From IMG/VR virus record IMGVR_UViG_2718218102_000002: a DNA stretch of 42,917 nt. One strand, 5' to 3'. A program made the translations under genes and the position numbers. Position 1 is the stretch's first letter, and each line of letters opens with the position of its first letter. The notes beneath the pieces are model-generated. The model worked only from the letters and a program-made list of their open reading frames with translations. It did not search any database and was not told the origin of the DNA. This document shows positions 22,258 through 37,653 of this stretch, piece by piece. The DNA comes from a virus. Taxonomy: Duplodnaviria; Heunggongvirae; Uroviricota; Caudoviricetes.

Positions 22258-24169
22258 TCACTCCTCCGGACAGCTTCGCTGCCAGTTCTTTAAGGGTTGG
22301 CCGGGTCGTCTCTTCTTCCCGGGATTTTGCCAGTACAGCCAGATCAAGCTGCCAGCGTTGCACGGACACACGTAATGCCGCGTAGGCATACACCAGGCAG
22401 TCCAGCGCTTCGTTACGCCGCTTTTTGTTATCCCACAGCAGACGCATCTTTCCTTTTTCCCACTTCTCCACAAGCTCTTCCGCGACCAGTTGCTGCGCCT
22501 CTGTCTGCGAAAAAATCTCCGGATCATCAGGAAAACGGATGGCATACGACGTGGCTTCATCCACAGGCGTGGGATCGGCTTTCATACGGGCATAGAGAAT
22601 TTCTTTTGCGGTGTCCGTCCCCACTTCACACAGATACACGCCCCGCTGATTGCGGGTTTTTGGCATGGTGATCACCGGCTTGCCATAGACAGATGCGCCT
22701 TTTACCGGCAGCACCCGGAAAACACCGTGTTTTTTTGACCTCTGATAAACGATTTCGCCATCGATCCCCCCGATGTCCCAGCAGACACGGGAAATAGTCA
22801 TTTCGGTTCCGTCTGCATGGCGGTATTTTTTGTTGATCGCCGCATCCACACGTAACAGCGTCTCTTCCTCATCGGGACGCCCCATAATGATGATTTTATC
22901 CACCAGAAAGGCTTCCTCTCCCGGAGCCCATCCCCAGACATACATCTCAAAACGGTTTCGCTGCGAGTCAATGCCCGCCGTCAGATAAACCACCCGGGCA
23001 GGCACCGCCGCCGTGTAACGCACAACCTTATCCATCAGCACCTGGTGATCGAGTTTTTCGCCCACAGCCTCTTCCCAGGTCTCGCCCAGCGTGGTGTTCA
23101 CAAAGGTTTTCAGGCCGTTGGGATCTTTCAGTGCATCCAGCCAGTCATAGACAATCTGTACCCAGGTGGTGAACGGACTGTACGCCGTCCAGATATGGAA
23201 AGTGATGGAGCGCGGCGGCGGAATTTCATCACCCCGGGCGCTGAAAAACATCAGGCCGTCACGGGTCCACATGCCCGTGTTTTCACAGATCCACCGCCCG
23301 TTACTCTGGTCAAGCTCAGACTGATGGATCACACAGCCATGATGCTCACAAAGGTAGAAAACACTTTCTGGCTTATTCTTCTCCCACTTAAGACCGAAAG
23401 GCGAGGCATCATCGCCAAATTTCAGATACTGCTCCTCCCCACAGTGCGGACAGGGCACATAAAAACGCATGAAGTGTGCCGACTCGTTAGCGGCTTTTTC
23501 GATCTGGCAGGAGCCTTTGATTTTAGGCGTCGAGCCGCGAATGGATTTTGGCCATACAGAGCCCTCAATACGTTTATCCCCCAGCAGGGTTGGCGAACCC
23601 TCTTTTTCAACATCCGGTTCGAACGAGGAAAGCTCGTCATAACAGACCACATCCACGGATTTTTCACGGTAGTTTTTTGCTGCCGCACCACCCAGACACC
23701 AGAACCCCACACCGGAGGAAAAACGCTTCAGGGTGAGCGTATTATCGCGGTGTTTTCTTCCGAACCATGGAGCCAGCTCCAGCAATGCAGGAACATCCCT
23801 TATCGTTGGCTCAACATGAGATTTCATAAAATCTTCAGCAGCTGAGTCCGTGGGCTGAAAAAGAAGGCTGTTGCGTGATTTATGCTCAATAAAATAAGCC
23901 TCCACTCCCAGCAACATCTTTGTATAACCAACACGGGCAGATTTAATCAGGTTAACCGTGCGAATCAGATCGTTGCCCATACAGTTCATGATGCCAACCT
24001 GAAACGGCAGTGTTTCCCACCGCCCCGGGGTATAAGACGACTCTTTAGGAAGGTAATAATGTTTATTGGCCCACTGAACTGTCGTCAGTGGAACAGGAAT
24101 AATGAGAGATAAAAGCCCTGTAGCTATCGCACCGGCTGCATTAGCTGCCTTCTGCGCGTCTGAAATCAT
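22241..24169 (-). CDS. A: Terminase large subunit A
   Basis: Blocks recalled from lambda gpA ([16 protein letters not shown], Walker-type region). Start set at MISDAQ, overlapping the Nu1 3' end by 29 nt. Confidence 0.9.
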
Positions 24170-24689
24170 CGATCCACCCGCCCACGTTTTCACCGGCCTT
24201 AGCTGCAACATTGGAGGCTTTCGCGATTTCAGTTTTCACCACATCAAGGTGTGATGGTGAAATGTCCGGATATTTACGCTGTAATGTCAACGGCACACGC
24301 ACAAGTATCCCCGAAATCTCCTGTGCCACACGTTGCAGAATGAAGGTAAACAGTTCAGTTTCCAGCACTACTCCGTCTTCACGGGCATTTTTCAGTTCCT
24401 GCGCATCTGCCTGCGCTTTTGTGAGCCGGTAGCGTTCATAGTCAATGGTGCCGGGTTGTAAATCTGACTCCGCTGCCGCACGCAAATCGTCCAGTTCTTT
24501 GCGGAGCTTTTCGTTTTCGATATCAGTTTCCCTCTGCGCATACCACTGAATTGCCATGGCAGTATCAAATACAGATTCAATGCCCTTACTACCTTTGGAG
24601 GCGCAAGGGAGTCCCTGAGACTGCCAGCGTTCAATCGTCCGCGGGTCCACGTTGAAAATTTCGGCAAGCCTCTTTTTATTAACCTTCAT
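24141..24689 (-). CDS. Nu1: Terminase small subunit Nu1
   Basis: 182 aa, starting [12 protein letters not shown] with a winged-helix N-terminus; sits about 170 bp downstream of cosN. Confidence 0.9.
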
Positions 24690-24856
24690 GAAAACAACCC
24701 ATTATCAAATACAAGGCCCGACATGAAAACGCCAGAAAAAGGCATTTTCGGACACTTTCATGTCGGACCTTTACGGATGCAATATTAAAAAAAAACAAAA
24801 AGTTATATTCGAGAAGTACCGACACGATTTTCCCTGAAAAATTTTCATAAATAGTG

Positions 24857-24868
24857 AAAAACCGCGAG
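24857..24868 (-). other. cos: cosN 12-nt cohesive end (GGGCGGCGACCT on the minus strand)
   Basis: Exact 12-mer, with flanking context CAGGTTACG|GGGCGGCGACCT|CGCGGTTTTTCACTATTTATGAAAAT matching the recalled lambda cos junction. Confidence 0.85.
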
Positions 24869-25026
24869 GTCGCCGCCCCGTAACCTGTTGGATCGACGGA
24901 AAGGACCCGAAAACGAGAATAATTATCACTTACAGCAAGAATCGAATCTGATCTATTATGGTGCTTGCTATTATGTGCCGGCACAAGTGCGTCGTTTACC
25001 GTCATTTCACACAGAGGCATCATCAA

Positions 25027-25278
25027 ATGAAAATCAGAAATATTCTCGCTATCTCCCTTGCGACATCATCCTTCAGTTGCCTGGCATTTAAATCCTCGCC
25101 CAATGTGCTACCAGGACCAACGAATCAACTAACTGCGGTAGAAAGTAAAATTATCGGACATTTTTATGCCCCACACAGTACATTACCCGGAACAACCATC
25201 ACAGGGACATGTGACGCCTCCCCCGTCCCGGGATGCACCTGCCCGTTTTGTACTATGCTGCGTAGCCAAAACCGATAA
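25027..25278 (+). CDS. Hypothetical small secreted Cys-containing protein
   Basis: Internal ATG of track ORF 24958-25278 gives an 83-aa product with a signal-peptide-like N-terminus (MKIRNILAISLATSSFSCLA) and a CxCPFC motif near the C-terminus. Confidence 0.3.
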   Translation: MKIRNILAISLATSSFSCLAFKSSPNVLPGPTNQLTAVESKIIGHFYAPHSTLPGTTITGTCDASPVPGCTCPFCTMLRSQNR

Positions 25279-25641
25279 CATCCGCATTTACCTGGTATTC
25301 CATGATGAGTTCACGCAGCGACTGATAGAGGAAGGAAAGATGGTTAGTAAAAGCAAGGCACATTGCCGCCGCATGCTGCAGGCATTGCAACAGACGAGAG
25401 CAGGTATTTTTGACCAGTTGGAAAACTGCCAGCATACTTTGCCCGAGTATATCGCCATCTCATCGGAAACCAGTGCAACTCTTATTCATCGGGTTCCACC
25501 AGAGAAAAAGAAGAAATGAACAGTGAGGCGTTGTGTGGCATACAACGCCTTCTTCCATCATTCCTCGTCAGCCATGACAAAAATATAACCGCTGGCTCTT
25601 TCATTTTTCTCCTGCTTCCAGCCCCTCTCTATCTGGAAGCA

Positions 25642-25968
25642 TCAAGGACGTGACGGCGTAAAGATAAATTGTCTCTTCACTCCCTGACAGGGGCGATTCT
25701 TTTCAAATCGCCATTTCGCCATGGCCTTCACCACTTCATCACGAAACAAATTATGAGGCTCTGAGCGGAGAAAAACGATCCGTGTCACAGTCCCATCAGC
25801 ACCAATATCGAACTTAACCTCAACCAGCCCCTTGATATAATTTGCTGCAGCATATTCCGGATATCGTGGATACACCGTCACTAATTGCCGGGGCTCATCA
25901 GCTTTTTGCTGCGAGCATCCCACTGCCAGGACAGATAACAGAAAAAGTAGTAAAAGGCGTCTTTTCAT
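25642..25968 (-). CDS. Lipoprotein with TonB C-terminal-like domain (accessory gene)
   Basis: Start set at MKRRLLLLFLLSVLAVGCSQ (lipobox LAVGC), with an AGGA Shine-Dalgarno. The mature part resembles the TonB_C fold pattern (YPRYPEYAAANYIKGLVEVKFDIGADGTV…AMAKWRFE). Confidence 0.55.
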   Translation of the reverse strand: MKRRLLLLFLLSVLAVGCSQQKADEPRQLVTVYPRYPEYAAANYIKGLVEVKFDIGADGTVTRIVFLRSEPHNLFRDEVVKAMAKWRFEKNRPCQGVKRQFIFTPSRP

Positions 25969-26448
25969 TTTTATTCCTACGGGTCTTATTCTGACAATAT
26001 ATCCTGTGTTCCAGACTGCCACATCACCACATCCTGTGCCATTATCTGACTCACATTACATACATCGCATCGGGATACAGTAGTAGCACTTTCTGTAATA
26101 CAGCTTCCTGTTTCTTCCACCATCGCACCGGGATAAACCCGCGAATCATTAACGCGGTAAAAACCCGGTGTGCATCGTTTTTAATTATTCCCGCACACTC
26201 ACGCAGAAGGAATTCCCCGTCGGGCTACGGTCATGGTTAATGCGGGAATACGGCGACGATACAGCGCAGCTAAAAGGGTAATGGACGGATAGACCGGTTT
26301 ATTTCATTCCACAGGATTCTGAGTGTCCCCAACTTCCTCCAATAGTCTGAGCCCACCTGTGTAGTTTTAATTTTCATCAATCCATTTAACTATCGTTTAA
26401 TTGTTGTCACATAGGATTCTGCCGTTTTTAACAATGCAGGATAATAAG

Positions 26449-26742
26449 ATGAAAAAAATGTTGTTTTCTGCCGCTCTGGCAATGCTTATTACAGGATGTG
26501 CTCAACAGACGTTTACTGTTGGAAACAAACCTACAGCAGTAACACCAAAGGAAACCATCACCCATCATTTCTTCGTTTCGGGAATTGGGCAGAAGAAAAC
26601 TGTCGATGCAGCAAAAATTTGTGGTGGTGCAGAAAATGTTGTTAAAACAGAAACCCAGCAAACATTCGTAAATGGATTGCTCGGTTTTATTACTTTAGGC
26701 ATTTATACTCCGCTGGAAGCGCGTGTGTATTGCTCACAATAA
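26449..26742 (+). CDS. bor: Bor lipoprotein (serum resistance)
   Basis: 97 aa, starting MKKMLFSAALAMLITGCAQQ; opposite strand to the late genes, between Rz and cos as in lambda. Confidence 0.9.
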   Translation: MKKMLFSAALAMLITGCAQQTFTVGNKPTAVTPKETITHHFFVSGIGQKKTVDAAKICGGAENVVKTETQQTFVNGLLGFITLGIYTPLEARVYCSQ

Positions 26743-26773
26743 TTGCATGAGTTGCCCATCGATATGGGCAGCT

Positions 26774-27235
26774 CTATCTGCACTGCTCATTAATATACTT
26801 CTGGGTTCCTTCCAGTTGTTTTTGCATAGTGATCAGCCTCTCTCTGAGGGTGAAATAATCCCGTTCAGCGGTGTCTGCCAGTCGGGGGGAGGCTGCATTA
26901 TCCACGCCGGAGGCGGTGGTGGCTTCACGCACTGACTGACAGACTGCTTTGATGTGCAACCGACGACGACCAGCGGCAACATCATCACGCAGAGCATCAT
27001 TTTCAGCTTTCGCATCAGCTAACTCCTTCGTGTATTTTGCATCGAGCGCAGCAACATCACGCTGACGCATCTGCATGTCAGTAATTGCCGCGTTCGCCAG
27101 CTTCAGTTCTCTGGCATTTTTGTCGCGCTGGGCTTTGTAGGTAATGGCGTTATTACGGTAATGATTAACAGCCCATGACAGGCAGACGATGATGCAGATA
27201 ACCAGAGCGGAGATAATCGCGGTTACTCTGTTCAT
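26774..27235 (-). CDS. Rz: Spanin inner-membrane subunit Rz
   Basis: 153 aa, starting [26 protein letters not shown]. Confidence 0.9.
26833..27015 (-). CDS. Rz1: Spanin outer-membrane lipoprotein Rz1, embedded in Rz in the +1 frame
   Basis: 60 aa with lipobox (VVVGC) and a proline run (PPPPP), lying wholly inside Rz. Confidence 0.85.
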
Positions 27236-27729
27236 TGCTGACCCCACAAACAGATTTCACGCTCAATCTCACGACGAGTCATGAGACCTTTCCATTGCTT
27301 ACCGCCAGCATATGTCCAGCGACGTAGCTGATCACATGAGCCTTTGATATCGCCCTGGTTTATTTTGCGAAGAAGCGTCGATGTTCTGAAATTACCAGCA
27401 CCCACGTTGTAAACGAATGAGTAAAGAGCGCCGCGCGTTGTTTCCGGTATATCGACTGTGATGTACGGGTTAATTTGTCTGGCGACAGTGGCAAGGTCTT
27501 TATTCAGGAGTGCTTTGCATTCTGCTTTGGTATACGTTTTACCGAGCATGATGTCTTTTCCTGTATGCCCGTGACATACAGTCCATACACCAACAATATC
27601 TTTGTATGGTATGTAGCTGACACCTTCCAGACCATCGTTACCACTTGGGCCAGTGATTAACACTGATGCTATAGCAATTGCTCCGCCACCAATAGCAGCA
27701 GCAACGGCTTTTCGTAATGATGGAGGCAT
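27232..27729 (-). CDS. R: SAR endolysin (T4-lysozyme fold, phage 21 R-like)
   Basis: Gly/Ala-rich signal-anchor-release N-terminus ([18 protein letters not shown]) followed by a lysozyme E…D…T catalytic pattern. Confidence 0.85.
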
Positions 27730-27944
27730 TATTCACCTCTCGCAGCCTTGCGCTTATCTTCTTTAATCTTGAAATAAAGGTTTGTCAGGTACGTCAGCAG
27801 GCCAAATACCAGGCTACCCAGCACACCTATTGCCGCCCACTGTGAGGGCGTGACTTTATCGAGCAACTGTAAAAACCAGTACCCGGCACTACCTGCTGAG
27901 GTACCATAGGCGACACCCGTTGTTAACTTATCCATGGATTTCAT
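27729..27944 (-). CDS. S: Pinholin (phage 21 S-like) with dual-start MKSM motif
   Basis: 71 aa with two TM segments; MKSMDK start allows the 71-aa antiholin and 68-aa holin forms. Confidence 0.85.
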
Positions 27945-28073
27945 AACCCCACCTCGCAGACAAAGCGGGTGTAAATTAAGGGGATACTACGTATCGCAAT
28001 AAAGGCAGAAACGTAACAGATTCGGAGTCAGTGAATAACTCAGGTATTGGGTTATCAGCTAATATCGAGACTC

Positions 28074-28106
28074 AAAAAATGGAAAAACCCGCTCGACGGC
28101 GGGTTT
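28074..28106 (-). terminator. Putative intrinsic terminator upstream of the lysis cassette (tR'-like position)
   Basis: Minus-strand hairpin aaacccgc-cgtcga-gcgggttt followed by ttccatttttt, about 130 bp upstream of the S start. Confidence 0.45.
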
Positions 28107-28532
28107 AAGCTGTGTGACGAAGTAACCACTCTTAACAGCATAACCAATTTTTTACGTACGTAAACTACTAAATGATATTTGTGAGAATGCCACCGAGTGT
28201 TCAAAACACCACCACAAATGCATAAGAAAACTTCAACAAATAACCAGTTAATAATTTCCGATGTTATTTTTAGTTTGTTTAAATTAAGCTAAAGAATTAT
28301 AGAGCACTTATAAATAAGTGCCATTAATATAAATTAGCTAATAGATTTATTTTTGTTCAGACAAGAGCCATGAATAGGATTAGATAGAAAAGGTTCCGAT
28401 AAAAATAGAGATCTACTTCACAAATTAAATGAGAAACTAAAACTTACATCTTGAAATAATCACATTGATTAGATGAATATTTATCGCGCAGTGACATCAT
28501 TTTTTAATAATAGTTCAAAAAAAGGGCGTACA

Positions 28533-29615
28533 ATGAAAAAATTAACAGTGGCAATTTCTGCTGTAGCTGCATCAGTACTGATGGCGATGTCTGCTCAGGC
28601 AGCTGAAATTTATAATAAAGACAGTAACAAGCTGGATCTATACGGGAAAGTTAATGCCAAGCACTACTTCTCCTCTAATGATGCAGATGATGGTGATACT
28701 ACTTATGCCCGTCTTGGCTTCAAAGGTGAAACCCAAATCAACGATCAACTGACTGGTTTCGGTCAGTGGGAATATGAATTCAAAGGCAACCGTGCTGAAT
28801 CTCAAGGTTCTTCCAAAGACAAAACCCGTCTTGCATTTGCAGGCCTGAAATTTGGTGATTACGGCTCAATCGATTACGGCCGTAACTACGGTGTAGCATA
28901 CGACATCGGTGCGTGGACTGACGTTCTGCCAGAATTCGGTGGTGATACCTGGACCCAAACAGATGTGTTCATGACTGGTCGCACTACTGGTGTTGCAACT
29001 TATCGTAACAACGACTTCTTTGGTCTGGTCGATGGCCTGAACTTTGCTGCTCAGTATCAGGGTAAAAATGACCGCACTGACGTAACTGAAGCCAATGGTG
29101 ATGGTTTCGGTTTCTCCACTACTTATGAGTATGAAGGATTCGGCGTGGGTGCAACCTATGCTAAATCAGATCGCACTGACGGTCAGGTCGCCTATGGTAA
29201 GAGCAAATTCAATGCCTCCGGCAAAAATGCGGAAGTATGGGCTGCAGGCCTGAAATATGATGCGAACAATATCTATCTGGCTACCACATATTCTGAAACT
29301 CAGAATATGACCGTTTTTGGTAATAACCATATTGCAAACAAAGCACAAAACTTTGAAGCAGTAGCACAATATCAGTTTGACTTCGGTCTGCGTCCATCTG
29401 TTGCTTACCTTCAGTCAAAAGGTAAAGACCTTGGTGTTCATGGTGACCGAGACTTAGTCAAGTATGTCGATGTCGGTGCTACTTACTACTTTAATAAAAA
29501 CATGTCCACTTTTGTTGATTACAAAATCAACTTAATTGACGATAGTAAGTTTACCAAAACAGCTGGTATTGATACCGACGACATCGTCGCTGTAGGTCTG
29601 GTTTATCAGTTCTAA
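28533..29615 (+). CDS. Outer membrane porin, OmpC/OmpF/NmpC (Lc-like) family
   Basis: Start set at MKKLTVAIS with a cleavable signal peptide; classic porin N-terminus [16 protein letters not shown] and C-terminal VGLVYQF. Confidence 0.85.
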
Positions 29616-29632
29616 TCTGACTTACGAAAAAG

Positions 29633-29668
29633 ATATGTTGCGGGAGGCTTTGCCTCCGCAACATATAA
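29633..29668 (+). terminator. Palindromic hairpin downstream of the porin gene
   Basis: atatgttgcgggaggc-ttt-gcctccgcaacatata; no clear U-tract. Confidence 0.4.
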
Positions 29669-29743
29669 GTGGAGCCCTCAAGCCACTTCCTTTAGAAGCA
29701 CTACCTTGCTTCTTACTATATAAACCTTCTGTTATATATTACC

Positions 29744-29769
29744 CTTTATTTTGGGGGCGTTTCCACGCC
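29744..29769 (+). terminator. Putative intrinsic terminator
   Basis: ggggcgt-ttcc-acgcccc followed by atttttaa. Confidence 0.45.
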
Positions 29770-29803
29770 CCATTTTTAATAACTTTTAGTAAACAATTGC
29801 ATA

Positions 29804-30187
29804 TCAATTAGAATTATTAGCAACGATATCCATATCTAACCGGATATCTAATGCCATTAACATCCCTTCAATTATGCCCTCAGCCTTCTGTAACCTTTTC
29901 CCGATATAACCATCCGAGCAGCAATGCTTACTTGCCAGTGACATGAATGTCATACCACATACATAATAATCTACTAATAAATCGTGTAAATCGCTGTTGT
30001 TCTTTTTCAGACGGGCCATGCACCCGCAAATGATCATCGCGTCATCGTCACAACATTGCGGGCGAGATTTTACTTTTGAAGGAATTAATCCCTTAAAACC
30101 GGCGGCAATGGACGACCAGGTCACATCTTCATGATTATTAGCCGCCCACGCACCCCAACGCTCAAGAACCATCTGAATATCACGCAT
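29804..30187 (-). CDS. Late-gene antiterminator Q, DLP12 QuuD/phage 82-type
   Basis: Start set at [18 protein letters not shown], giving 127 aa. Cys-rich ([18 protein letters not shown]) and sits just upstream of the late region. Confidence 0.75.
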
Positions 30188-30409
30188 CAACTTACTCCAC
30201 AAAAATCAGACCAGAACGCCAATTACAAGCAAAAATCAACAAAACAGTATTAGTTGATTGTTATCTCTGACTTCATACTCCTGTTCCTGTCAGGGTTTTG
30301 GCGTAATTCTTCAGTATTCGGTAATCGGTCAAAACAGAACCGGGGAAACGATATAAGCGCAGACGCCCCCAGCGGTGGCGAAGAAGTTCTGCCATATTAA
30401 ACTCAAACA

Positions 30410-30772
30410 TCATTCATTCCCCATTTCGGTGATGGTCAGTTCCAGCCTCCCACCTTTGGTAACAGGCATCTTCACAACGCGGTAATCAACGACCTGAGCA
30501 TCATCCAGCCAGAAACCTGCTTTAGTGAGTGCGTCAAAAGCGGCTTTTTGCAGATTATCCAGGTCACGGCGACGGCGATCCGGCATGTGGCACTCAATGC
30601 GGATTTTCACAGGCATAGCCAGGCCGATATCCAGCATTGCGTTTTTAATGATTCGGGCGACGTTATCGCGGTATGCCTGCCCCTCTGCGCTGACGTGCGT
30701 GCGCCCGCGATTATGGCGGTAATAGCGATTATTGCTCGGAGGCCAGGGTAATGTGATGCTGTAGGTATTCAC
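30410..30772 (-). CDS. rusA: Holliday junction resolvase RusA
   Basis: 120 aa, starting [18 protein letters not shown], matching the E. coli RusA as recalled. Confidence 0.9.
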
Positions 30773-31059
30773 GCCTTAATAACCCCCTCTTTCAGCCACA
30801 TAACCTGTGTTCTCGCCATACCTTCCAGCGCGCATTCTTTTGCATATGCAGCATCGACAAAATGTGTGCGGCGGTCGATTTCGTCGTGGCAGGCAGAACA
30901 TGCAATGGTGGCAATCAGGTCTGGCGGTTTGGTACCGGTGCCGCACAATCCAGTCAGCCGGATATGTGCCAGTACAGACGTTTCAGGGTTGCCATTACAT
31001 ACGCCAGGGATTCTTACCTGGCATTCCCGACCACGCGCTGCTTTTCTCAAATCAGCCAT
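30769..31059 (-). CDS. YbcO-like protein (DUF1364), putative nuclease
   Basis: Start set at [14 protein letters not shown] (AGGAGG Shine-Dalgarno 5 nt upstream), giving 96 aa with a Cys cluster. ATGA overlap with the rusA start. Confidence 0.65.
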
Positions 31060-31222
31060 GACTCCTCCTTGCTGCCAGTCGCAACCATTTTTTATCAACC
31101 AGGCTGGCGGTATATCCGAGCAGTGTTGGTATTTCGGATGGCTTCAGCTCAGGCTTACGCTTACGACGATTTGATACTCTGTAGATGTGTCCGTTCATGA
31201 CACGAATAAGCGGTGTAGCCAT
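31052..31222 (-). CDS. NinE-like small basic protein (below the track length cutoff)
   Basis: Hand-translated 56-aa [59 protein letters not shown]. Start overlaps the ninB stop (TAATG) and stop overlaps the ybcO-like start. Confidence 0.4.
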   Translation of the reverse strand: MATPLIRVMNGHIYRVSNRRKRKPELKPSEIPTLLGYTASLVDKKWLRLAARRSHG

Positions 31223-31677
31223 TACGCCTCCTGCTTGTCGCGGAGCAGCTGGAACTCGCAGCTCTGCGGAATAGTCAGGTGGCAGCCAATATTCACCGCC
31301 CAGGCTTCAACCTTACACAGGAAGACATACATCTCTCCGGTATCAAGATCGGAGGTATGGCGTAACGACTGGATAGTGGTGATATCACCGGTTACGACAT
31401 CAACCAGGTCTTTGGTTTCATAACCGAGATATGTGTGTTTGAGAGCATCTTTTACCCAAGCTGGAGTGGCGAACGTTTTACCCCTGCTGATGAGGTATTC
31501 ACTGATTTCGCTGTACCACATGTGGCTGAGTGCATTCTGGGAAAGACTGCGTCTCTCGCGCCACGGTTTAAGCACCATGCGAAAGCATTTGCCGTCTTCC
31601 AGATAAGTCTGGATCTGCTGACCGACAGCGGTGAAGTTACCGCGATGTAATTTGATGCCATCTTGTGGGAGGTTCAC
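31222..31677 (-). CDS. ninB: NinB/YbcN-family recombination protein
   Basis: 151 aa; contains the SLSQN…W pattern recalled for NinB. Confidence 0.7.
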
Positions 31678-31944
31678 GCTTCACCTCCGCAGAGATCAAA
31701 CGCTGGATGCAAGACATCGCAGGTGCATTTCTGCATCTGTGACAAGGTGATGAGTTCAGATTGTGGTCGCATTTAAGTCCCCTTAAATGCGCAGAAGTCA
31801 CCGGAGTTGTTCAGGCTCCGATGAGAGGATTATGGCGGATTGATTACGATAAATCAAAACTATCTTGAAGCCAAAACAGTGATCTTCGCTTTAAAAACCT
31901 TGTATACTTTCACCTAATCACAGCCAGAACTATGGATCTAACCA

Positions 31945-32322
31945 ATGACCAACAAAGAAAACAAAGATAAATATATTAACAAGTTCAAGAAAGAGCTTTC
32001 AAAATATATACAACCAACTGCTGGAGTGGACATTCAATTATTTAACTCTAAGGATGGTGGTGGTGTAATTAAAGCCACTTTGAATAGAAGTGGAAAAAGA
32101 AAATCATCTATTGCAGGTAATTTTACTAAATTAGGTGAGGCAATTACCTCGAGTGGGCAGAGGGTTTTTGGTGGTGATCTATCAAATGTAAATTTTTACG
32201 GAACAAATACGATTTTTGATGGAGATACAATATTTTTAATTAAATCACCTGATTCAGAGGAGTGGTCATCACAAAAAGCTTCCAAAGACGTAGAGGGAAT
32301 CGTATTTGGAGGGAAAAAATGA
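31945..32322 (+). CDS. Hypothetical soluble protein (AT-rich opposite-strand cassette, gene 1)
   Basis: 125 aa, Lys/Gly-rich, no predicted TM segment; very low GC compared with flanking phage genes. Confidence 0.5.
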   Translation: MTNKENKDKYINKFKKELSKYIQPTAGVDIQLFNSKDGGGVIKATLNRSGKRKSSIAGNFTKLGEAITSSGQRVFGGDLSNVNFYGTNTIFDGDTIFLIKSPDSEEWSSQKASKDVEGIVFGGKK

Positions 32323-32747
32323 TTAACATTACTACTAAGGATGGCACTCAAGTCAGTGGTGAAGTAAGAGATCTAGTAATTCTTCTTGAAACTGATGGAA
32401 AAACGGTGTCTGATTATTTGCAGCCAATCCCTCCCAAAAAAGATACACACTGGAGCATGATTTTCATTCCGGTAGCAATTTATATACTACTTAATCTTGT
32501 ATACATTATTGCTCACCCATTATTTCCTGAAAAATATCTAAAAACATCAACATCTATATTTCTATTCATTTCCTTCATATTAAGTGCAATAGTAGCATAT
32601 TTTGTTTTCCATAAGCATAAATCTGCCACTCTATCCATATGCAGCTTAGTGTTCTTAGTGTTAATTGTAGGTGCTAACGTAGGGTTTATCAGTTACAGCG
32701 ACCTAACACAAAAAGCGACGCAAAAATTAGATAGTTTGTCTAAATAA
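32319..32747 (+). CDS. Hypothetical membrane protein, about 3 TM helices (AT-rich cassette, gene 2)
   Basis: Start set at MINITTKDG, with GGAGGG Shine-Dalgarno and ATGA overlap with the gene 1 stop. Soluble N-terminal ~45 aa, then three hydrophobic segments. Confidence 0.5.
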   Translation: MINITTKDGTQVSGEVRDLVILLETDGKTVSDYLQPIPPKKDTHWSMIFIPVAIYILLNLVYIIAHPLFPEKYLKTSTSIFLFISFILSAIVAYFVFHKHKSATLSICSLVFLVLIVGANVGFISYSDLTQKATQKLDSLSK

Positions 32748-32825
32748 TTATGTTGCCATGCGAAGTATGCATGGCTGCATGTCTGCCTTCCATTTAAAAT
32801 GGGCTAAGACCTATAACCCTAAATA

Positions 32826-33539
32826 TTATTCTTTATTATCTTCTTTACCACTTCGCACCATCCCGTTCGACTTGTTGCGGTTGTACTTCGCCTGAAGCAG
32901 CTGGATTGGCGTCGGGCCATGCTCGGCAGCCGGTGCTGCAATCGCCCGGCGCACAGGCGGTACTGGTTTGCCCTCGGTGACGCGCCTCTCCCACATGTCC
33001 AGCAGATCGCCGGCTTCACGCGCCAGCTCACCATGCGTTAACTGGCGCTCTGTGCTGCGGTGGCGCAGTTCGACGCAGATGTGGTACATGACAGGCTGTG
33101 ACCACGGGAAATGCTCGCTGGAAGTGAATTCGAAGGAACGATTACGCCAATCCCAGTATTCGGTTATGACTTGGTCAACAGTGATACCTAACGCCCCGCC
33201 ACTCTGCTTACACCACGCTACGAACTGGCCGGGCGACGGCAGGAATGGTCGCTCCTGTCGGCGGGCCACGCGCATTCCGGCGTTAACCTGCTCCATAGTG
33301 GTAATTCCATTTTCACGGAAAGCCATAACCCACTGACGGCGGATTTCGTTCAGCTCGTTCTGGTCGCGGTTCGCGAGGCTTGCCGGAAATGTCGCAAGCA
33401 GCTGGCTGAACACACCGTTGATGATCTGCGCCACCTGCTGCACCTGCGGCTTTTCGTCGTATTGTTCCGGCATGTTGTTGGCGATTCGACGCATCTGCTC
33501 ACGGTCAAAGTTAATCATCTGCGCGGCAATATTTTTCAT
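32826..33539 (-). CDS. P: Replication protein P (DnaB helicase loader)
   Basis: N-terminal ~110 aa (MKNIAAQMINFDREQMRRIANNMPEQYDEKPQVQQ…) matches lambda P as recalled; C-terminal part differs. Confidence 0.85.
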   Translation of the reverse strand: MKNIAAQMINFDREQMRRIANNMPEQYDEKPQVQQVAQIINGVFSQLLATFPASLANRDQNELNEIRRQWVMAFRENGITTMEQVNAGMRVARRQERPFLPSPGQFVAWCKQSGGALGITVDQVITEYWDWRNRSFEFTSSEHFPWSQPVMYHICVELRHRSTERQLTHGELAREAGDLLDMWERRVTEGKPVPPVRRAIAAPAAEHGPTPIQLLQAKYNRNKSNGMVRSGKEDNKE

Positions 33540-34465
33540 AGCTCCACCCCGTAAATCCAGTCAGTGTTTGTCAGGTCGAGTTTTGGTTTGCTGGCAGTCA
33601 CACCAGCCTGTTGCTTGTTGCGGTTAATTTCGAGCTGAGTCCACTTGTCGCGGAGTTTTGCTGGACTCAGCACGTTACCGGACCAGAAGTTGTCCTGGCA
33701 GGCCCAGCGGAACAGAACGCACATGTCGCGATGGTTACGCCCGTCACGCTCACGCATCAGGCGGATGTCGTTGGCCCACCCTGCAAAATTCGGTTTTCTG
33801 GCTGATGGCGCGATGGTCTTCACCATGTCAAACATCCACTCTGCGGCGGTCAGGTCTTCTGCTGTCCCCCACTTGCTGCCGCTCTGAATTGCAGCATCCG
33901 GTTTCACCACAGGAAGATCGTTTTCTGGCTGGTCAGAGGATTCGCCAGAATTCTCGGACGAAAAAGGTTTTATATTGTCTTTTGTTAGTTTGTCTTTTGT
34001 GTTTACCTGATTCGGGTAAACGTCTTTACCTGATTTGGGTAAACTTTTCTTACCTGATTCAGGTAAATTTACCTCTTTCAGGTAAACTTTATTTTTCTTA
34101 CCTGATTCGGGTAATGTTGACCATTCACTGACCACATTATTAATGCCGATATTCCGCCCGCTCTGAATAAAAATCCCACGCTTTACCAGAACACTTTTTG
34201 CAGCAGAACACTTGTGCGGCAATATCCCGGTCAACTCGGAAAGTTGCTCGTTGCTCACCCAATCCAGTTTTTTATTAAAGCCATATGTTTTGCGCATGAC
34301 AGCCAGGAAGACCAGAAGCTGGTGCTGTGTTAATCCGGCCAGCATCACAGCTTCCAGCAACTCATTTGCAATGCGCGTATAACCATCATCGAGATCTGCC
34401 ACGCGCGGCTCCTTTTGTGCCACATCCGGCACTGGAAAATTGAATATCTCAGCAGTGTTTGCCAT
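33536..34465 (-). CDS. O: Replication initiator O
   Basis: Start set at MANTAEIFNF (GGGAGG Shine-Dalgarno). N-terminal domain resembles lambda O (VADLDDGY, RKTYG-N); the gene contains the iteron array. Confidence 0.85.
   Translation of the reverse strand: MANTAEIFNFPVPDVAQKEPRVADLDDGYTRIANELLEAVMLAGLTQHQLLVFLAVMRKTYGFNKKLDWVSNEQLSELTGILPHKCSAAKSVLVKRGIFIQSGRNIGINNVVSEWSTLPESGKKNKVYLKEVNLPESGKKSLPKSGKDVYPNQVNTKDKLTKDNIKPFSSENSGESSDQPENDLPVVKPDAAIQSGSKWGTAEDLTAAEWMFDMVKTIAPSARKPNFAGWANDIRLMRERDGRNHRDMCVLFRWACQDNFWSGNVLSPAKLRDKWTQLEINRNKQQAGVTASKPKLDLTNTDWIYGVEL
34002..34115. repeat. ori: Origin of replication: five ~18-19-bp palindromic iterons (TTTACCTGATTCGGGTAAA-like) inside O, next to an AT-rich stretch (33961-34000)
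   Basis: Iterons at 34002-34020, 34025-34043, 34050-34067, 34068-34086 and 34098-34115. Confidence 0.75.
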
Positions 34466-34551
34466 AATTCCTCCCGCAATGAGTGTGTTACGATTTGCAC
34501 CTGAAAGTCGGTTCTGTTCGCGCAGACCGGCTTTCGCCATTTCTGAACCTG

Positions 34552-35097
34552 TCATATTGCCCCCAGCATGGTGGTGACCATCGCCATCAATGGACCAGCC
34601 AGATCCGGGTCCACACGAAACATCGACACAATGCCTTCACTCATCTCCTTCAGTTTCTGGTGGCGTGGTGCGTTGAGAATGACAGCCTGTTTTGCCTCAC
34701 TGAGTTCCTTTTCCATTTCAGCCAGCCGAGCCATGTAGCTATCCTGCTCAACCAGGTGGCCGCGATATTCCAGCGGTAGTACCGCCAGAATTGCCGGGGT
34801 CAGTTCACGCACGTTATTTCGGTATTTTTCAGAATCGAATTTGTTATCGAGAAAGCGGAACAGCTTCTGGCGTGCACGGCTGACATCATCAGGGAAATCG
34901 ATGGTGCCGCCGCCCTGCTCCCGATACTCATTCACAATGAGTGCGGCAACAACATCCTGATTATCTGCAGCCGACCAGGCGCGAACGGCATCACGGATTT
35001 TTTCGTGGCCTGGCGCCTGTTTTGTTTGAGAACGATTTATCACCGCAGTCGGGCTAAATCCGCTAGTCTGTTGGTATGTAAGTGGTTGCATAGTCAT
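34552..35097 (-). CDS. Hypothetical regulator in the cII position (CII-like or YdaT-like); function uncertain
   Basis: 181-aa ORF between cro and O; no family confidently recognised by eye. Confidence 0.4.
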   Translation of the reverse strand: MTMQPLTYQQTSGFSPTAVINRSQTKQAPGHEKIRDAVRAWSAADNQDVVAALIVNEYREQGGGTIDFPDDVSRARQKLFRFLDNKFDSEKYRNNVRELTPAILAVLPLEYRGHLVEQDSYMARLAEMEKELSEAKQAVILNAPRHQKLKEMSEGIVSMFRVDPDLAGPLMAMVTTMLGAI

Positions 35098-35121
35098 TGC
35101 CTTATCAGTTAACGCCGCAGT

Positions 35122-35349
35122 TTAGGCGGCAGAATTACTCGCGTTAAACAATGGTGCGAGGTCGGGACGAATATCTGCTGGTTTAATCTTTCCACCAGTG
35201 GCTGAGACAATTTTCATTACATAGCGGGCATCAATTCCGCCACCGTGTAGCCAACGCCAAACTGTGGGTTGGGCTACACCGCATAGATCTGCCAGTCGTT
35301 TTTGACTACCTGTAATACTGATTGCGAGTTGAATGGTTTGATTTGTCAT
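35122..35349 (-). CDS. cro: Cro-like HTH repressor
   Basis: 75 aa from the ATG at 35349 (track start is a TTG). HTH motif QKRLADLCGVAQPTVWRW; divergent from cI across the operator region. Confidence 0.7.
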   Translation of the reverse strand: MTNQTIQLAISITGSQKRLADLCGVAQPTVWRWLHGGGIDARYVMKIVSATGGKIKPADIRPDLAPLFNASNSAA

Positions 35350-35459
35350 TATCAATTCCTATTGGTATTGCAATGAATAAATAATAGCAATGCGTATTAA
35401 TCCAAGCAATAGCAAAACGTGTTTTGACCATCAATACGCAAGCGTATAAATTAAAACTT
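35350..35459. promoter_or_regulatory. Right operator/promoter region (oR with divergent pR and pRM-like promoters)
   Basis: Three ATAGCAAT/ACCAATAG-type sites spaced about 22-23 bp apart (35359-35375, 35381-35398, 35404-35418). Plus strand: TTGACC (35424-35429) and TATAAA (35445-35450) just before the cI ATG. Minus strand: TTGCTT-17nt-TATTAT upstream of cro. Confidence 0.5.
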
Positions 35460-36152
35460 ATGAAAAAAGAAACTCTTGCTGATCGCTTAAACCTAGCGAT
35501 GGAACAATCTGGAATGTCTCAAGGCGCTCTTGCAAAGGCGTCTGGCGTAGCTCAACCCACAATCTGGAGACTGACAAGCGGCAACGCGCGCGGCTCAACA
35601 AAAATTGTTGAAATAGCTAATGCATTGGGTGTTCGAACAGAATGGCTCTCATCAGGCATAGGCCCGATGAGAAATGACGGTCAACAATCAGGGAAGCCTG
35701 CTGTCAGCTATTCCAAATACTTTAAAATTGACGTTCTTGATATAGAAGTGAGTGCCGGGCCGGGAGTCATCAACCGTGAGTTTGTAGAAGTTCTACGCTC
35801 GGTTGAGTACTCGTTTGACGATGCTCGTCACATGTTCGATGGTAGGAAGGCAGAAAATATCCGCATCATTAACGTACGCGGTGACAGCATGTCAGGAACG
35901 ATTGAACCTGGTGATCTTCTATTCGTTGATATCACGGTTAAATCTTTCGACGGTGATGGTATCTATGCGTTTCTGTACGACGACACAGCCCATGTAAAGC
36001 GCCTGCAAATGATGAAGGATAAGCTGCTGGTTATCTCTGATAACAAAAGCTACTCACCGTGGGACCCGATCGAGAAAGATGAGATGAACCGGGTATTTAT
36101 CTTCGGGAAAGTTATTGGGAGCATGCCGCAGACGTATAGGAAGCATGGATAG
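35460..36152 (+). CDS. cI: CI-type repressor (N-terminal HTH plus C-terminal S24 LexA-like autopeptidase)
   Basis: HTH motif QGALAKASGVAQPTIWRL; GDSM and a downstream Lys (HVKRL) typical of the S24 Ser-Lys dyad. The ATG at 35460 is preferred over the track TTG at 35424. Confidence 0.85.
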   Translation: MKKETLADRLNLAMEQSGMSQGALAKASGVAQPTIWRLTSGNARGSTKIVEIANALGVRTEWLSSGIGPMRNDGQQSGKPAVSYSKYFKIDVLDIEVSAGPGVINREFVEVLRSVEYSFDDARHMFDGRKAENIRIINVRGDSMSGTIEPGDLLFVDITVKSFDGDGIYAFLYDDTAHVKRLQMMKDKLLVISDNKSYSPWDPIEKDEMNRVFIFGKVIGSMPQTYRKHG

Positions 36153-36232
36153 TACCAATTAAAAATTATCAACCGGGCATTGTGCTCATTCAGTAAAACA
36201 ACTTAATTATTCATTTTAGAATGGAGAACTTA

Positions 36233-37294
36233 ATGGATACTTTAAAATATGAGAAATTCTCTGATTTTGATCACAATGACCCATTTTTTGACTCTTTAAA
36301 AAAAGATTATAAAGAGTTTCCTCTTTGGTTAGAAAAAAAAGCCAGAGAAGGAGAATCAGCTTATGTGCTCTATGATGACAAGCATAAAATCGAAGGTTTT
36401 ATGTATCTAAAAGAAAATGATGATGCAAATGACATTAATCCAGCGCTCCCACCAGGACGTCATCTAAAGATAGGAACATTCAAATTTGAATCTAAAGGCA
36501 CCCTTCGCGGACAACGATTTCTAAAAAAAGCGTTTGACCATGCATTTTCATCAAAATCTGATGATATTTATGTTACTGTTTTCGACAAACACGTCCATCT
36601 AATAAAACTTTTCCAAACGTACGGATTTTACATTCATGGTGAAAAAGAAACACATAACGGGAAAGAGTTTGTATATGCGAGGTCTTTGCATGAGCCTTAT
36701 GGTGATATTTTATTAGATTACCCTCGAATAATGACATCAAGGGCCAACAAATATTTACTGGCGATTTATCCCGAATATCACACTAGACTATTCCCTGATT
36801 CAAAACTTGTAAATGAATCACCAGATATTGTCAAAGATATATCCCATGCTAACAGCATTCATAAAATTTACATATGTGGAATGCGTTCTGTGATGGGAAT
36901 GAAAAGAGGAGATATCATTGTCATCTATAGAACCGGAGACAAAAAAGGGCCAGCTCGCTATCGTTCTGTAGCCAGTACATTATGTGTAGTTGAGAGCGTA
37001 AAAAATATTTCTGAATTTTTAAGCGAAGATAGTTTTGTAGACTATTGTATTCGTTTTAGCGTATTTTCTGAAGATGAACTCAGAAAAATCTATAAAGAAC
37101 GTCGATACCCTTTCATTATAAGATTCACATACAATCTGTCTTTGCCAAAGAGACCCAATCGTGCTATTTTAATAGATCATGTGGGGCTAAATGGTTCGCG
37201 TGCATTCCGATGGAGTCACTTTAAACTCACAAATGAGCAGTTCTTAAAGATCATCGAGTTAGGCAAGATAAATGAAAGTTTTATTATCCATTAA
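36233..37294 (+). CDS. Hypothetical two-domain protein: possible GNAT-like N-terminal half and ASCH/PUA-like C-terminal half
   Basis: 353 aa from the second ATG (GGAG Shine-Dalgarno). N-terminal segment LRGQRFLKKAF…IYVTVFD…LFQTYGFYIHG loosely resembles GNAT motifs A/B. Domain calls are by eye and tentative. Confidence 0.55.
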   Translation: MDTLKYEKFSDFDHNDPFFDSLKKDYKEFPLWLEKKAREGESAYVLYDDKHKIEGFMYLKENDDANDINPALPPGRHLKIGTFKFESKGTLRGQRFLKKAFDHAFSSKSDDIYVTVFDKHVHLIKLFQTYGFYIHGEKETHNGKEFVYARSLHEPYGDILLDYPRIMTSRANKYLLAIYPEYHTRLFPDSKLVNESPDIVKDISHANSIHKIYICGMRSVMGMKRGDIIVIYRTGDKKGPARYRSVASTLCVVESVKNISEFLSEDSFVDYCIRFSVFSEDELRKIYKERRYPFIIRFTYNLSLPKRPNRAILIDHVGLNGSRAFRWSHFKLTNEQFLKIIELGKINESFIIH

Positions 37295-37649: not shown

Positions 37650-37653
37650 GAAT

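What the first reader, a model, noticed from the sequence alone, without database searches (positions are those of the whole stretch)
25642..25968. Accessory lipoprotein with TonB C-terminal-like domain next to cos and bor
A 108-aa lipoprotein (lipobox LAVGC) whose mature part looks like the C-terminal domain of TonB sits between bor and cos, a region that holds lysogenic-conversion genes in lambdoid phages. A periplasmic TonB-C mimic could compete for TonB boxes of outer membrane receptors, blocking TonB-dependent phages or colicins (functionally like Cor-type exclusion) or altering iron uptake. That role is hypothesis only.
Basis: partly seen in the sequence, partly recalled or inferred. Interest (0 to 1): 0.6.

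Follow-up and report, generated by a model that had tools for sequence, protein, structure and literature searches.

The report
Phage lipoprotein copy of TonB's C-terminal domain
A phage-21-like prophage of E. coli encodes a small outer-membrane lipoprotein that is a stand-alone copy of the receptor-docking end of the host protein TonB; it probably jams TonB-powered uptake gates, but the gene is already annotated and this role has not been tested.

Summary
Window 25642..25968 (minus strand) encodes a 108-aa protein with a conserved lipoprotein signal (…LAVGC) and a TonB C-terminal domain. Support: Pfam PF03544 at E=7e-13; a gapless alignment to E. coli TonB 151-230 at about 40% identity; and a confident AlphaFold model lying 0.9-1.0 Å from TonB in its BtuB and FhuA complexes.

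The gene is real and under purifying selection (dN/dS about 0.12 between two variants that are 70% identical). It occurs in phage 21, Stx1 phages and about 30% of complete E. coli genomes. More distant relatives are in Klebsiella, Serratia, Erwinia and Rahnella.

In four diverged lineages it sits just downstream of the lysis cassette, on the late-operon strand. I found no promoter or terminator of its own.

It lacks TonB's membrane anchor and proline-rich rod, so it cannot transduce energy. It also lacks the C-terminal strand that occludes TonB's TonB-box-binding edge.

Best reading: a dominant-negative TonB decoy. This is inferred, not shown. Databases already name it "TonB family protein". 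I found no paper on its function.

In passing: a conserved structured RNA lies 135 nt upstream. It is shared by more than 430 lambdoid phage records, including lambda, and is absent from Rfam.

The parts
25642..25968 (-). Gene for the 108-aa TonB C-terminal-domain lipoprotein (RefSeq WP_000830178.1 'TonB family protein'; phage 21 CPT_21_73)
   Evidence: ORF; annotation; Pfam, NCBIfam and PDB matches; dN/dS 0.12 against variant B
25915..25968 (-). Lipoprotein signal peptide, residues 1-17, plus the lipid-modified Cys18 (lipobox A-V-G-C; +2 Ser)
   Evidence: Sequence; lipobox conserved in variants A and B and in the P0037, P0042 and P0043 types
25657..25893 (-). TonB_C domain, residues 26-104, equivalent to E. 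coli TonB 153-231. Topology beta1 28-30, alphaI 38-42, beta2 47-55, beta3 61-70, alphaII 76-83, beta4 87-88, beta5 94-103
   Evidence: Gapless alignment; AlphaFold model; Foldseek hits to 1u07, 2gsk_B and 2grx_C
25975..25978 (-). Ribosome-binding site AGGA, 7-10 nt upstream of the ATG
   Evidence: Sequence; annotated in phage 21
26106..26262 (-). Conserved structured RNA candidate with six helices on the late-operon sense strand, ending 135-147 nt upstream of the gene in every variant A and B locus. It also occurs in lambdoid phages that lack the gene
   Evidence: Alignments A4, A6 and A9; RNAalifold; pair counts with controls; 432 phage records; no Rfam match; coordinates
25986..26123 (-). 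Small upstream ORF (45 aa; phage 21 CPT_21_72). Only its first ~10 codons are conserved; variant B has a stop after 17 codons. Probably not a gene; it overlaps the last RNA hairpin
25482..25604 (-). Small downstream ORF (40 aa; phage 21 CPT_21_74) on the same strand, not characterised
25253..25435 (-). Small downstream ORF (60 aa; WP_000881607.1, CPT_21_75) on the same strand, not characterised
26449..26742 (+). bor/iss serum-resistance lipoprotein gene on the opposite strand (neighbouring moron)
26774..27944 (-). Lysis cassette upstream on the same strand: pinholin S 27729..27944, SAR endolysin R 27232..27729, Rz 26774..27235, embedded Rz1 26833..27015
24867..24878 (.). cosN cohesive-end site. 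The junction of the phage 21 genome ends falls at 24878/24879
24141..24689 (-). Terminase small subunit (nu1), the first packaging gene downstream on the same strand

Best explanation
The gene encodes an exported, outer-membrane-anchored, stand-alone copy of TonB's C-terminal domain that acts as a non-energised decoy of TonB. The proposed steps are as follows. [quoted passage not shown] A linker of only about 7 residues (SQQKADE) holds the domain at the periplasmic mouth of TonB-dependent transporters. There its exposed beta5 edge (residues 99-104, equivalent to TonB 226-231) pairs with the transporters' TonB boxes by beta-strand addition, as TonB itself does. The protein has no transmembrane anchor, no proline-rich rod and no link to ExbB/ExbD, so it cannot pull on the plug. 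It occupies the docking site and competes with TonB. The expected result is a general dampening of TonB-dependent entry: TonB-dependent phages of the T1 and phi80 type, group B colicins, microcins and siderophores. This would protect the infected or lysogenic cell. Shown here: the ORF, the export signal, the domain identity, the fold, purifying selection, the distribution and the conserved position in the late operon. Inferred: lipidation and sorting, binding to TonB boxes, inhibition, the time of expression and the benefit to the phage.
For: Domain identity: with the alignment offset query residue i = TonB residue i+127. The YP motif (Y36, P37) is kept, as are the aromatic residues F53, F75, W86, F88 and F103, which correspond to TonB F180, F202, W213, Y215 and F230. 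Fold: the model lies closest to TonB as seen bound to BtuB (2gsk_B, TMt 0.92, 1.0 Å) and to FhuA (2grx_C, TMt 0.91, 0.9 Å). Docking edge: PMC6118199 states that EcTonB 226-231 pairs in parallel with the TonB box, with F230 next to the conserved Val10. It also states that TonB 235-239 can form an extra strand that blocks this edge and must be exchanged. The phage protein ends at the equivalent of T235 with the tail T-P-S-R-P, so that blocking strand cannot form. Not an energy transducer: it is 108 aa long, and it scores 45-69 bits against full-length TonB equivalog models whose cut-offs are 265-448. [quoted passage not shown] 2001, as cited in PMC9841981), and proteolytic TonB fragments competitively inhibit energy transduction (bioRxiv 10.1101/2022.09.26.509584). 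Precedent for the strategy: the T5 Llp and Cor lipoproteins sit on the inner leaflet of the outer membrane and bind the periplasmic plug face of FhuA to exclude phages (bioRxiv 10.64898/2026.03.26.714494). Functional constraint: dN/dS 0.12-0.13 at dS about 1.4. All family members have export signals, either a lipobox or a signal-peptidase-I site. Spread: variant A in 1224 and variant B in 415 of 5426 complete E. coli genomes, and in inducible phages.
Against: There is no direct evidence of binding or inhibition. TonB Q160 and R166, which I recall (not checked here) as implicated in contacts with transporters, are replaced: Y33 in variant A and L in variant B for Q160, Y39 for R166. No promoter of its own was detected, so expression in lysogens, where exclusion would pay most, is unproven. 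If it is made only late in lytic growth, the benefit of blocking TonB is less obvious. General inhibition of siderophore and B12 uptake would be costly to a lysogen. I could not determine the receptor used by this prophage's own J protein, so self-exclusion cannot be assessed. PADLOC has no matching defence family.
Confidence: 0.5

Rival explanations
1. It inhibits the Ton system by titrating TonB itself rather than the transporters. The tethered domain would form a heterodimer with the C-terminal domain of host TonB and hold it unproductively at the outer membrane. The phenotype would be the same as for the decoy, but the target would differ.
For: Isolated TonB C-terminal domains crystallise as dimers; the best structural match, 1u07, has two chains. 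[quoted passage not shown] From my own knowledge, TonB is far scarcer than its transporters, so titrating it would need less protein.
Against: About 40% identity to E. coli TonB may not preserve a dimer interface. PMC6118199 reports that the transporter-bound form of TonB is monomeric. Nothing here was tested directly.
Confidence: 0.15
2. It is an envelope protein with a role unrelated to blocking TonB. Examples: a virulence or iron-related conversion factor like its neighbour Bor/Iss; a peptidoglycan- or protein-binding anchor; or a factor that acts around lysis because it is co-expressed with the lysis genes.
For: It sits in the classic moron spot next to bor/iss. It follows the lysis cassette in four diverged lineages. 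All seven phage records that carry variant A also carry the sitABCD Fe/Mn transporter. Some TonB contact residues differ.
Against: The closest relative by far is the TonB-box-docking domain of enterobacterial TonB, with the docking strand kept and unblocked. No other ligand is suggested by any search.
Confidence: 0.2
3. It is an o-spanin (an Rz1-type lysis lipoprotein), as the label of its PHROG family suggests.
For: Best PHROG hit is phrog_1267 'Rz-like spanin', E=5e-43. It is an outer-membrane lipoprotein encoded just after the spanin genes.
Against: A canonical embedded Rz1 is present here (26833..27015) and in phage 21. A separate lipoprotein that looks like Rz1 or an o-spanin was also found in the four distant-lineage loci where one could be identified: L092, L105, L118 and L128. 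The mature protein is a 90-residue globular TonB fold, not a short proline-rich peptide. The PHROG label is best explained as annotation carried over from position.
Confidence: 0.03
4. It is an inert fragment of a captured host tonB gene, as the old labels 'partial' or 'truncated tonB-like' imply.
For: Legacy annotations such as 'Partial tonB-like membrane protein encoded within prophage CP-933N' and 'TonB fragment'.
Against: dN/dS is 0.12 with saturated synonymous divergence. The protein has acquired a lipoprotein signal peptide that is conserved, and its own ribosome-binding site. Intact copies are present in 1224 and 415 genomes. The family extends down to about 30% identity in other genera with the same architecture.
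Confidence: 0.03

Closest known systems
C-terminal domain of E. coli TonB (residues ~150-239; PDB 1U07, 1XX3, 2GSK chain B, 2GRX chain C)
   Same: About 40% identity over 80 residues with no gaps. Same fold, 0.9-1.4 Å rmsd. YP motif, core aromatic residues and the TonB-box-pairing strand are retained.
   Different: No N-terminal transmembrane anchor, no proline-rich rod and no coupling to ExbB/ExbD. Instead it has a cleavable lipoprotein signal that should place it on the outer membrane. It lacks the last four residues and the occluding terminal strand. Q160 and R166 are replaced. It is encoded by phages.
Cor (phi80, N15, HK022, mEp167) and Llp (T5) superinfection-exclusion lipoproteins
   Same: Small phage-encoded lipoproteins on the inner leaflet of the outer membrane that act on the periplasmic face of a TonB-dependent transporter. 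This is the closest analogue of how I think the protein works.
   Different: Unrelated in sequence and fold: no Cor or Llp family among the Pfam, NCBIfam or PHROG matches, and no BFVD structural match at E<=0.001. Cor and Llp are specific to FhuA and work allosterically on its outer loops. A TonB-domain decoy would in principle address every transporter that has a TonB box.
Engineered periplasmic TonB fragments (Howard, Herrmann, Stratilo and Braun 2001) and proteolytic TonB fragments
   Same: A TonB C-terminal part delivered to the periplasm without its energy-coupling N-terminus is reported to inhibit TonB-dependent import.
   Different: Those are laboratory constructs or breakdown products of the host protein and are soluble. 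This is a natural, selected, lipid-anchored version carried by phages. I could not read the original paper here.
Bor/Iss lipoprotein of lambdoid phages
   Same: A small outer-membrane lipoprotein encoded in the same interval between the lysis genes and cos.
   Different: Unrelated protein on the opposite strand. From my own knowledge, lambda bor is expressed in lysogens; the bor/iss promoter was not examined in this window. The gene studied here is co-oriented with the late operon and has no detectable promoter.
Rz1 o-spanins (the label of PHROG 1267)
   Same: An outer-membrane lipoprotein encoded next to the lysis genes.
   Different: A canonical Rz1 coexists with it in this window and in phage 21, and Rz1/o-spanin-like lipoproteins are present in the distant-lineage loci checked. 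It has a globular TonB fold.

Membership tests
TonB_C domain (Pfam PF03544 / TIGR01352) | Profile match above the curated threshold | tested here: met
   PF03544 49.2 bits against 24.6, E=7.3e-13; TIGR01352 47.4 bits against 27.1
TonB_C domain (Pfam PF03544 / TIGR01352) | [quoted passage not shown] | tested here: met
   AlphaFold mean pLDDT 85.9, above 95 over residues 31-100. Foldseek: 1u07_A E=4e-8; 2gsk_B TMt 0.92 at 1.0 Å; 2grx_C TMt 0.91 at 0.9 Å
TonB_C domain (Pfam PF03544 / TIGR01352) | Conserved YP motif and core aromatic and glycine residues | tested here: met
   Y36-P37 = Y163-P164. F53, F75, W86, F88 and F103 = F180, F202, W213, Y215 and F230. G47 and G59 = G174 and G186
TonB energy transducer (NCBIfam PRK10819 equivalogs, 'TonB system transport protein TonB') | Full-length match above the equivalog cut-off | tested here: not met
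   45-69 bits against cut-offs of 265-448; only the last ~85 profile positions are matched
TonB energy transducer (NCBIfam PRK10819 equivalogs, 'TonB system transport protein TonB') | N-terminal uncleaved transmembrane anchor that couples to ExbB/ExbD, and a proline-rich periplasmic spacer | tested here: not met
   The protein is 108 aa. Residues 1-18 are a lipoprotein signal, and only 7 residues separate Cys18 from the domain
Bacterial lipoproteins (signal peptidase II substrates) | Basic n-region, hydrophobic h-region, lipobox [LVI..][ASTVI][GAS]C with Cys at position 15-35 | tested here: met
   MKRR-LLLLFLLSVL-AVG-C18 by inspection. The Cys and lipobox are kept in variants A and B and in the P0037, P0040, P0042, P0043, P0049 and P0062 types. 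A minority of distant members instead have a signal-peptidase-I site
Bacterial lipoproteins (signal peptidase II substrates) | Actual lipidation and outer-membrane localisation | not testable with these tools
   Only the +2 rule applies: Ser19, or Ala/Thr in variants, and never Asp. This predicts Lol sorting to the outer membrane
Cor/Llp superinfection-exclusion lipoproteins | Sequence or fold of the Llp/Cor family | tested here: not met
   No Cor or Llp family among the Pfam, NCBIfam or PHROG hits. No BFVD match at E<=0.001. The fold is that of the TonB C-terminal domain
Cor/Llp superinfection-exclusion lipoproteins | Blocks infection by phages that use a TonB-dependent transporter | not testable with these tools
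   Needs plating assays
o-spanin (Rz1) / PHROG 1267 label | Is the outer-membrane partner of the i-spanin, i.e. the only lipoprotein of the lysis cassette; short and proline-rich | tested here: not met
   A canonical Rz1 is embedded in Rz at 26833..27015. Separate Rz1/o-spanin-like lipoproteins are present in L092, L105, L118 and L128. The mature protein is globular
Moron (autonomous transcription unit in a phage genome) | Own promoter upstream and terminator downstream | tested here: inconclusive
   The consensus scan finds no sigma-70-like site on the gene's strand between bor and the gene, and no terminator after it. The stem-loop right after the stop codon has no T run. Non-consensus or activator-dependent promoters cannot be excluded

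The most novel reading that the evidence does not exclude
Lambdoid phages carry a natural, lipid-anchored TonB decoy that closes all TonB-dependent gates of the cell at once. That would be a single small protein giving broad exclusion of TonB-dependent phages, group B colicins and microcins, by a mechanism different from the receptor-specific Cor and Llp proteins. In the phage 21 lineage, the TonB-independent Fe/Mn importer sitABCD on the same genome would offset the loss of siderophore iron.
Probability: 0.3. Interest if true: 0.75.

Novelty: new variant of a known kind. Interest (0 to 1): 0.55.

Why it matters
If the decoy reading is right, it would be a new way for phages to exclude competitors. 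The phage would imitate the host's energy-coupling protein and disable a whole class of outer-membrane gates, rather than blocking one receptor.

That would affect phage therapy and colicin or microcin sensitivity, because many therapeutic phages and bacteriocins enter through TonB-dependent transporters. It would also affect iron physiology in the roughly 30% of sequenced E. coli that carry the gene, which include uropathogenic strains and Stx1 phages.

It would also give TonB researchers a naturally optimised inhibitor of the TonB-TonB-box interaction, which has been proposed as an antibiotic target (PMC9841981).

The test is simple: one cloned 327-bp gene plus standard plating and uptake assays. 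If the result is negative, the gene remains a widespread, strongly conserved envelope protein of unknown role in one of the classic phages.

Tried and rejected
1. The first AlphaFold run, with a 6-sequence alignment, gave a poor model (pLDDT 60.8). It was replaced by a run with 30 sequences.

2. A locus search with the 16-sequence alignment failed because no stretch was conserved enough. It was split into two narrower alignments.

3. Receptor of the prophage. The C-terminal 270 aa of J matches phages 2H10, Turner and long-tailed Stx phages. No lambda record is among the 30 best-scoring matches. I could not assign a receptor, so self-exclusion cannot be assessed.

4. Own promoter or Fur box. 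The consensus scan found nothing on the gene's strand. By eye, a conserved GATAAT about 70 nt upstream matches only 10-11 of 19 positions of the Fur-box consensus and has no -35 element. I rejected it as evidence.

5. The o-spanin reading suggested by the PHROG label was rejected.

6. The pseudogene reading was rejected.

7. The scan of species genomes for the RNA motif returned only Escherichia plus evident lambda control-DNA contamination, so it added no diversity.

8. Literature. Eight of the nine full-text searches looked for work on a phage-encoded TonB-domain protein or on the RNA element, and found none (one search gave only the precedent). Howard et al. 2001 is not held, and the phage 21 genome announcement does not mention the gene.

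9. No PADLOC defence family matches.

10. The afdb50 structure library was not available.

Full report
**What is there**

Window 25642..25968 on the minus strand holds an ATG-initiated ORF of 108 codons. An AGGA ribosome-binding site lies 7-10 nt upstream. The product begins MKRRLLLLFLLSVLAVGC|SQQK, a textbook lipoprotein signal: a basic n-region, a hydrophobic core, and the lipobox A-V-G-C with Cys18. Residue +2 is Ser, so the established +2 rule predicts sorting to the outer membrane.

The window is a lambdoid prophage. Window 24000..42917 is 100% identical to the chromosome of uropathogenic E. coli BH100N, and the annotation of the corresponding 42,917-bp BH100N stretch fits the window's genes. 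The window is about 98% identical to phage 21 over the head-tail, cos and lysis regions. It differs in the end of J and the side fibres, in immunity and replication, and in the Q-porin segment.

The gene lies between bor/iss (26449..26742, opposite strand) and cosN (junction at 24878/24879). It is on the same strand as the lysis genes S-R-Rz/Rz1 upstream and nu1-A downstream.

**Is it a TonB C-terminal domain?**

Yes, by three independent lines.

- Profiles. Pfam PF03544 scores E=7.3e-13, 49.2 bits against a gathering score of 24.6. TIGR01352 scores 47.4 bits against 27.1. The best NCBIfam hits are the enterobacterial TonB models, matched only over their last ~85 positions.
- Solved structures by sequence. 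Residues 24-103 align without a single gap to E. coli TonB 151-230 (E=1.4e-14), so residue i corresponds to TonB residue i+127. The YP motif (Y36-P37) is kept, as are the aromatic residues F53, F75, W86, F88 and F103 (TonB F180, F202, W213, Y215, F230). TonB Q160 and R166 are replaced by Y33 and Y39.
- Fold. A first AlphaFold run on six sequences was poor. With 30 family members the model reached pLDDT above 95 across the domain. Its closest PDB neighbours are all TonB C-terminal domains: 1u07 (E=4e-8), TonB bound to BtuB (2gsk_B, TM 0.92, 1.0 Å) and TonB bound to FhuA (2grx_C, TM 0.91, 0.9 Å).

**Is it a working gene?**

Two E. coli variants exist. Variant A is this window's form. Variant B is about 70% identical in protein and 73% in DNA. 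Between them dN/dS is 0.12-0.13 with synonymous sites near saturation (dS about 1.4), both for the signal peptide and for the mature part. The lipobox and its Cys are invariant.

Variant A is present in 1224 of 5426 complete E. coli genomes, with up to three copies. Variant B is present in 415, with up to four copies. In the curated phage collection the gene is in phage 21, ev017, Perceval, three ECOR-derived phages, four Stx1a phages, Lys8385Vzw, JLK-2012 and a Klebsiella phage.

An exhaustive profile search found a wider family of proteins about 110 aa long, down to roughly 30% identity, with the same plan: an export signal, a short linker and a TonB_C domain. Named members come from Rahnella, Erwinia and Serratia. 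Most have a lipobox. Some have an ordinary signal-peptidase-I site instead, such as ASA|Q or ALA|L. The constant feature is export of a bare TonB C-terminal domain to the periplasm.

**Context**

In four diverged lineages (A, B, P0037-type, P0042-type) the gene lies on the late strand, downstream of holin, endolysin and, where these could be identified, Rz/Rz1, and upstream of the packaging genes where the locus reaches them (terminase in A, B and the P0042-type). These phages have different endolysins (SAR lysozyme or GH19-like) and different packaging modules (lambda nu1/A or HNH plus terS).

The PHROG that holds the protein is labelled 'Rz-like spanin'. However, a canonical Rz1 is present here and in phage 21, and a separate Rz1/o-spanin-like lipoprotein is present in the four distant-lineage loci where one could be found. 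That label is an annotation artefact.

A consensus scan finds no sigma-70-like promoter on the gene's strand between bor and the gene, and no terminator after it. The hairpin just after the stop codon has no T run. The simplest reading is co-transcription with the late operon. Expression in lysogens is neither shown nor excluded.

**How it most likely works**

The protein keeps the part of TonB that docks onto transporters and has lost everything that transmits force. PMC6118199 summarises the structural knowledge. [quoted passage not shown] Residues 235-239 can fold back as an extra strand that blocks this edge and must be exchanged for the TonB box.

In the phage protein the docking strand is residues 99-104 (RQFIFT; F103 = F230, present in at least 90% of the 16 family members aligned in A3). 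The chain ends four residues early with T-P-S-R-P, so the blocking strand cannot form. Only about seven residues separate the lipid anchor from the domain, which would hold it at the periplasmic mouth of outer-membrane barrels.

There is experimental precedent. [quoted passage not shown] 2001, as cited in PMC9841981). TonB fragments competitively inhibit energy transduction. Phages already use inner-leaflet lipoproteins (T5 Llp, Cor) that bind the periplasmic plug face of FhuA to exclude other phages.

I therefore commit to a dominant-negative TonB decoy that damps TonB-dependent entry of phages, colicins, microcins and siderophores, with confidence about 0.5. The identity, export signal, fold, selection and synteny are shown. 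Binding, inhibition, timing and benefit are inferred.

**Rivals**

- The tethered domain might titrate TonB itself through a heterodimer. The phenotype would be the same but the target different.
- It might serve another envelope role tied to lysis, iron or virulence.
- The o-spanin reading and the 'partial tonB' pseudogene reading are contradicted by the data above.

**What weakens the decoy idea**

- Q160 and R166 are changed.
- No promoter was found.
- Constitutive TonB blockade would be costly to a lysogen.
- I could not assign the prophage's own receptor.

One observation fits a compensated iron budget. All seven phage records that carry variant A also carry the TonB-independent Fe/Mn importer sitABCD, which only 27 of 50,697 phage records have. 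Common descent of a phage-21-like lineage could explain this equally well.

**Comparison with what is known, and novelty**

The domain similarity is not new. RefSeq calls the protein 'TonB family protein' (WP_000830178.1). The phage 21 record calls it 'TonB C-terminal domain protein'. Older records call it a 'partial tonB-like membrane protein' of prophage CP-933N.

What appears to be undescribed is its function. Eight full-text searches found no paper on a phage-encoded TonB-domain protein. The phage 21 genome note does not mention it. PADLOC has no such family. No viral structure in BFVD resembles it.

It is a member of the TonB_C domain family. It is not a TonB energy transducer, not a Cor/Llp family member and not a spanin. 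I rate it a new variant of a known kind: a TonB domain in a new architecture and setting, probably working like Cor/Llp but by molecular mimicry of TonB.

**Noticed in passing: a structured RNA upstream**

The 157 nt at 26106..26262 on the late-sense strand are more conserved between variants A and B (about 88-90%) than the coding sequence is (73%). The same element occurs in 432 phage records, including lambda (about 46.88-47.04 kb), HK629, 933W-type and long-tailed Stx phages, ES18 and other Salmonella phages. It always lies between the lysis cassette and terS, cos or the genome end, whether or not the TonB-domain gene or bor is present.

On an alignment of 14 phages, six helices are supported.

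- 95.5% of cells form pairs, against 29-57% when the 3' partners are slid by 1-3 columns.
- Ten pairs show changes on both sides, against 2-5 in the slid controls and 0 of 500 shuffles.
- Invariant U-G pairs fit only this strand.
- The sense strand folds better than the antisense strand: -60.3 kcal/mol (z -2.1) against -51.1 (z -1.55).

No Rfam family matches. Its function is unknown. The candidates, all speculative, are a processing or stabilising element of the late transcript, or a leader for the packaging genes.

Noticed in passing
window 26106..26262 (minus strand): A conserved, apparently undescribed structured RNA candidate with six helices in the late transcript, 135-147 nt upstream of the TonB-domain gene. 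It is present in 432 phage records, including lambda itself (about 46.88-47.04 kb), Stx phages and Salmonella ES18, always between the lysis cassette and the packaging genes. Covariation exceeds both controls, and U-G pairs indicate the late-sense strand. No Rfam family matches. This may deserve a finding of its own.
   Followed up: partly
window 1..854 (sitD) and phage records: The prophage ends in the sitABCD Fe/Mn ABC importer, which lies inside the phage 21 genome. All 7 phage records with the variant-A TonB-domain gene also carry sitA, while only 27 of 50,697 phage records carry sitA at all. A TonB-independent metal importer might compensate for a TonB blocker, or the two may simply be inherited together.
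   Followed up: partly
window 28533..29615 (+): An OmpC-like porin gene (Lc/NmpC type) sits between the Q antiterminator and the lysis genes on the opposite strand. With Bor/Iss, Lom (5121..5720, minus strand) and the TonB-domain lipoprotein, this prophage carries four genes for outer-membrane proteins.
   Followed up: no
residue 94 of the protein (window 25687..25689): Position 94 (aligned to TonB G221) is Cys in this window and in some variant-B loci, but Arg in other members of both variants. This is a recurrent CGT/TGT polymorphism that gives the mature periplasmic protein a single free Cys.
   Followed up: no
PHROG phrog_1267: The PHROG family holding this protein is labelled 'Rz-like spanin' (E=5e-43). 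The members examined are TonB_C lipoproteins that coexist with Rz1 or other o-spanin-like lipoproteins, so the label looks wrong and will spread into phage annotations.
   Followed up: yes
family alignment A8: Some distant family members (Erwinia and Serratia types) have an ordinary signal-peptidase-I signal (…TASA|Q, …ALA|L) instead of a lipobox. They are predicted to be soluble periplasmic TonB domains, like the engineered inhibitory fragments.
   Followed up: no
loci L169-L206: Exact matches to the lambda version of the RNA motif appear in assemblies of Kitasatospora, Cohnella, Brevibacillus, Flavobacterium and others, on contigs of about 3.5 kb or about 48.4 kb. These look like lambda control-DNA contamination of public genomes.
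   Followed up: no
window 1675..1873 (minus strand): The only Rfam match above threshold in the window is IS009 (RF02111, 221 bits), at the 5' end of the tail-fibre-assembly gene (1635..2216, minus strand).
   Followed up: no
window 25614..25640 (minus strand): An 8-bp stem (GCTTCCAG…CTGGAAGC) with an 11-nt loop lies directly after the stop codon, with no T run. It is absent from variant B. It is not a terminator by the consensus scan.
   Followed up: no
HK629 record NC_019711.1 45479..45505 (locus L086 1218..1244, minus strand): In HK629 a sigma-70 promoter (TTGACA-N15-17-TATAAT consensus, two mismatches) is annotated on the bor strand inside the conserved element. By eye, the corresponding hexamers are degenerate in this window (CGGTCA … TACGGC), so bor/iss here may use another promoter.
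   Followed up: partly
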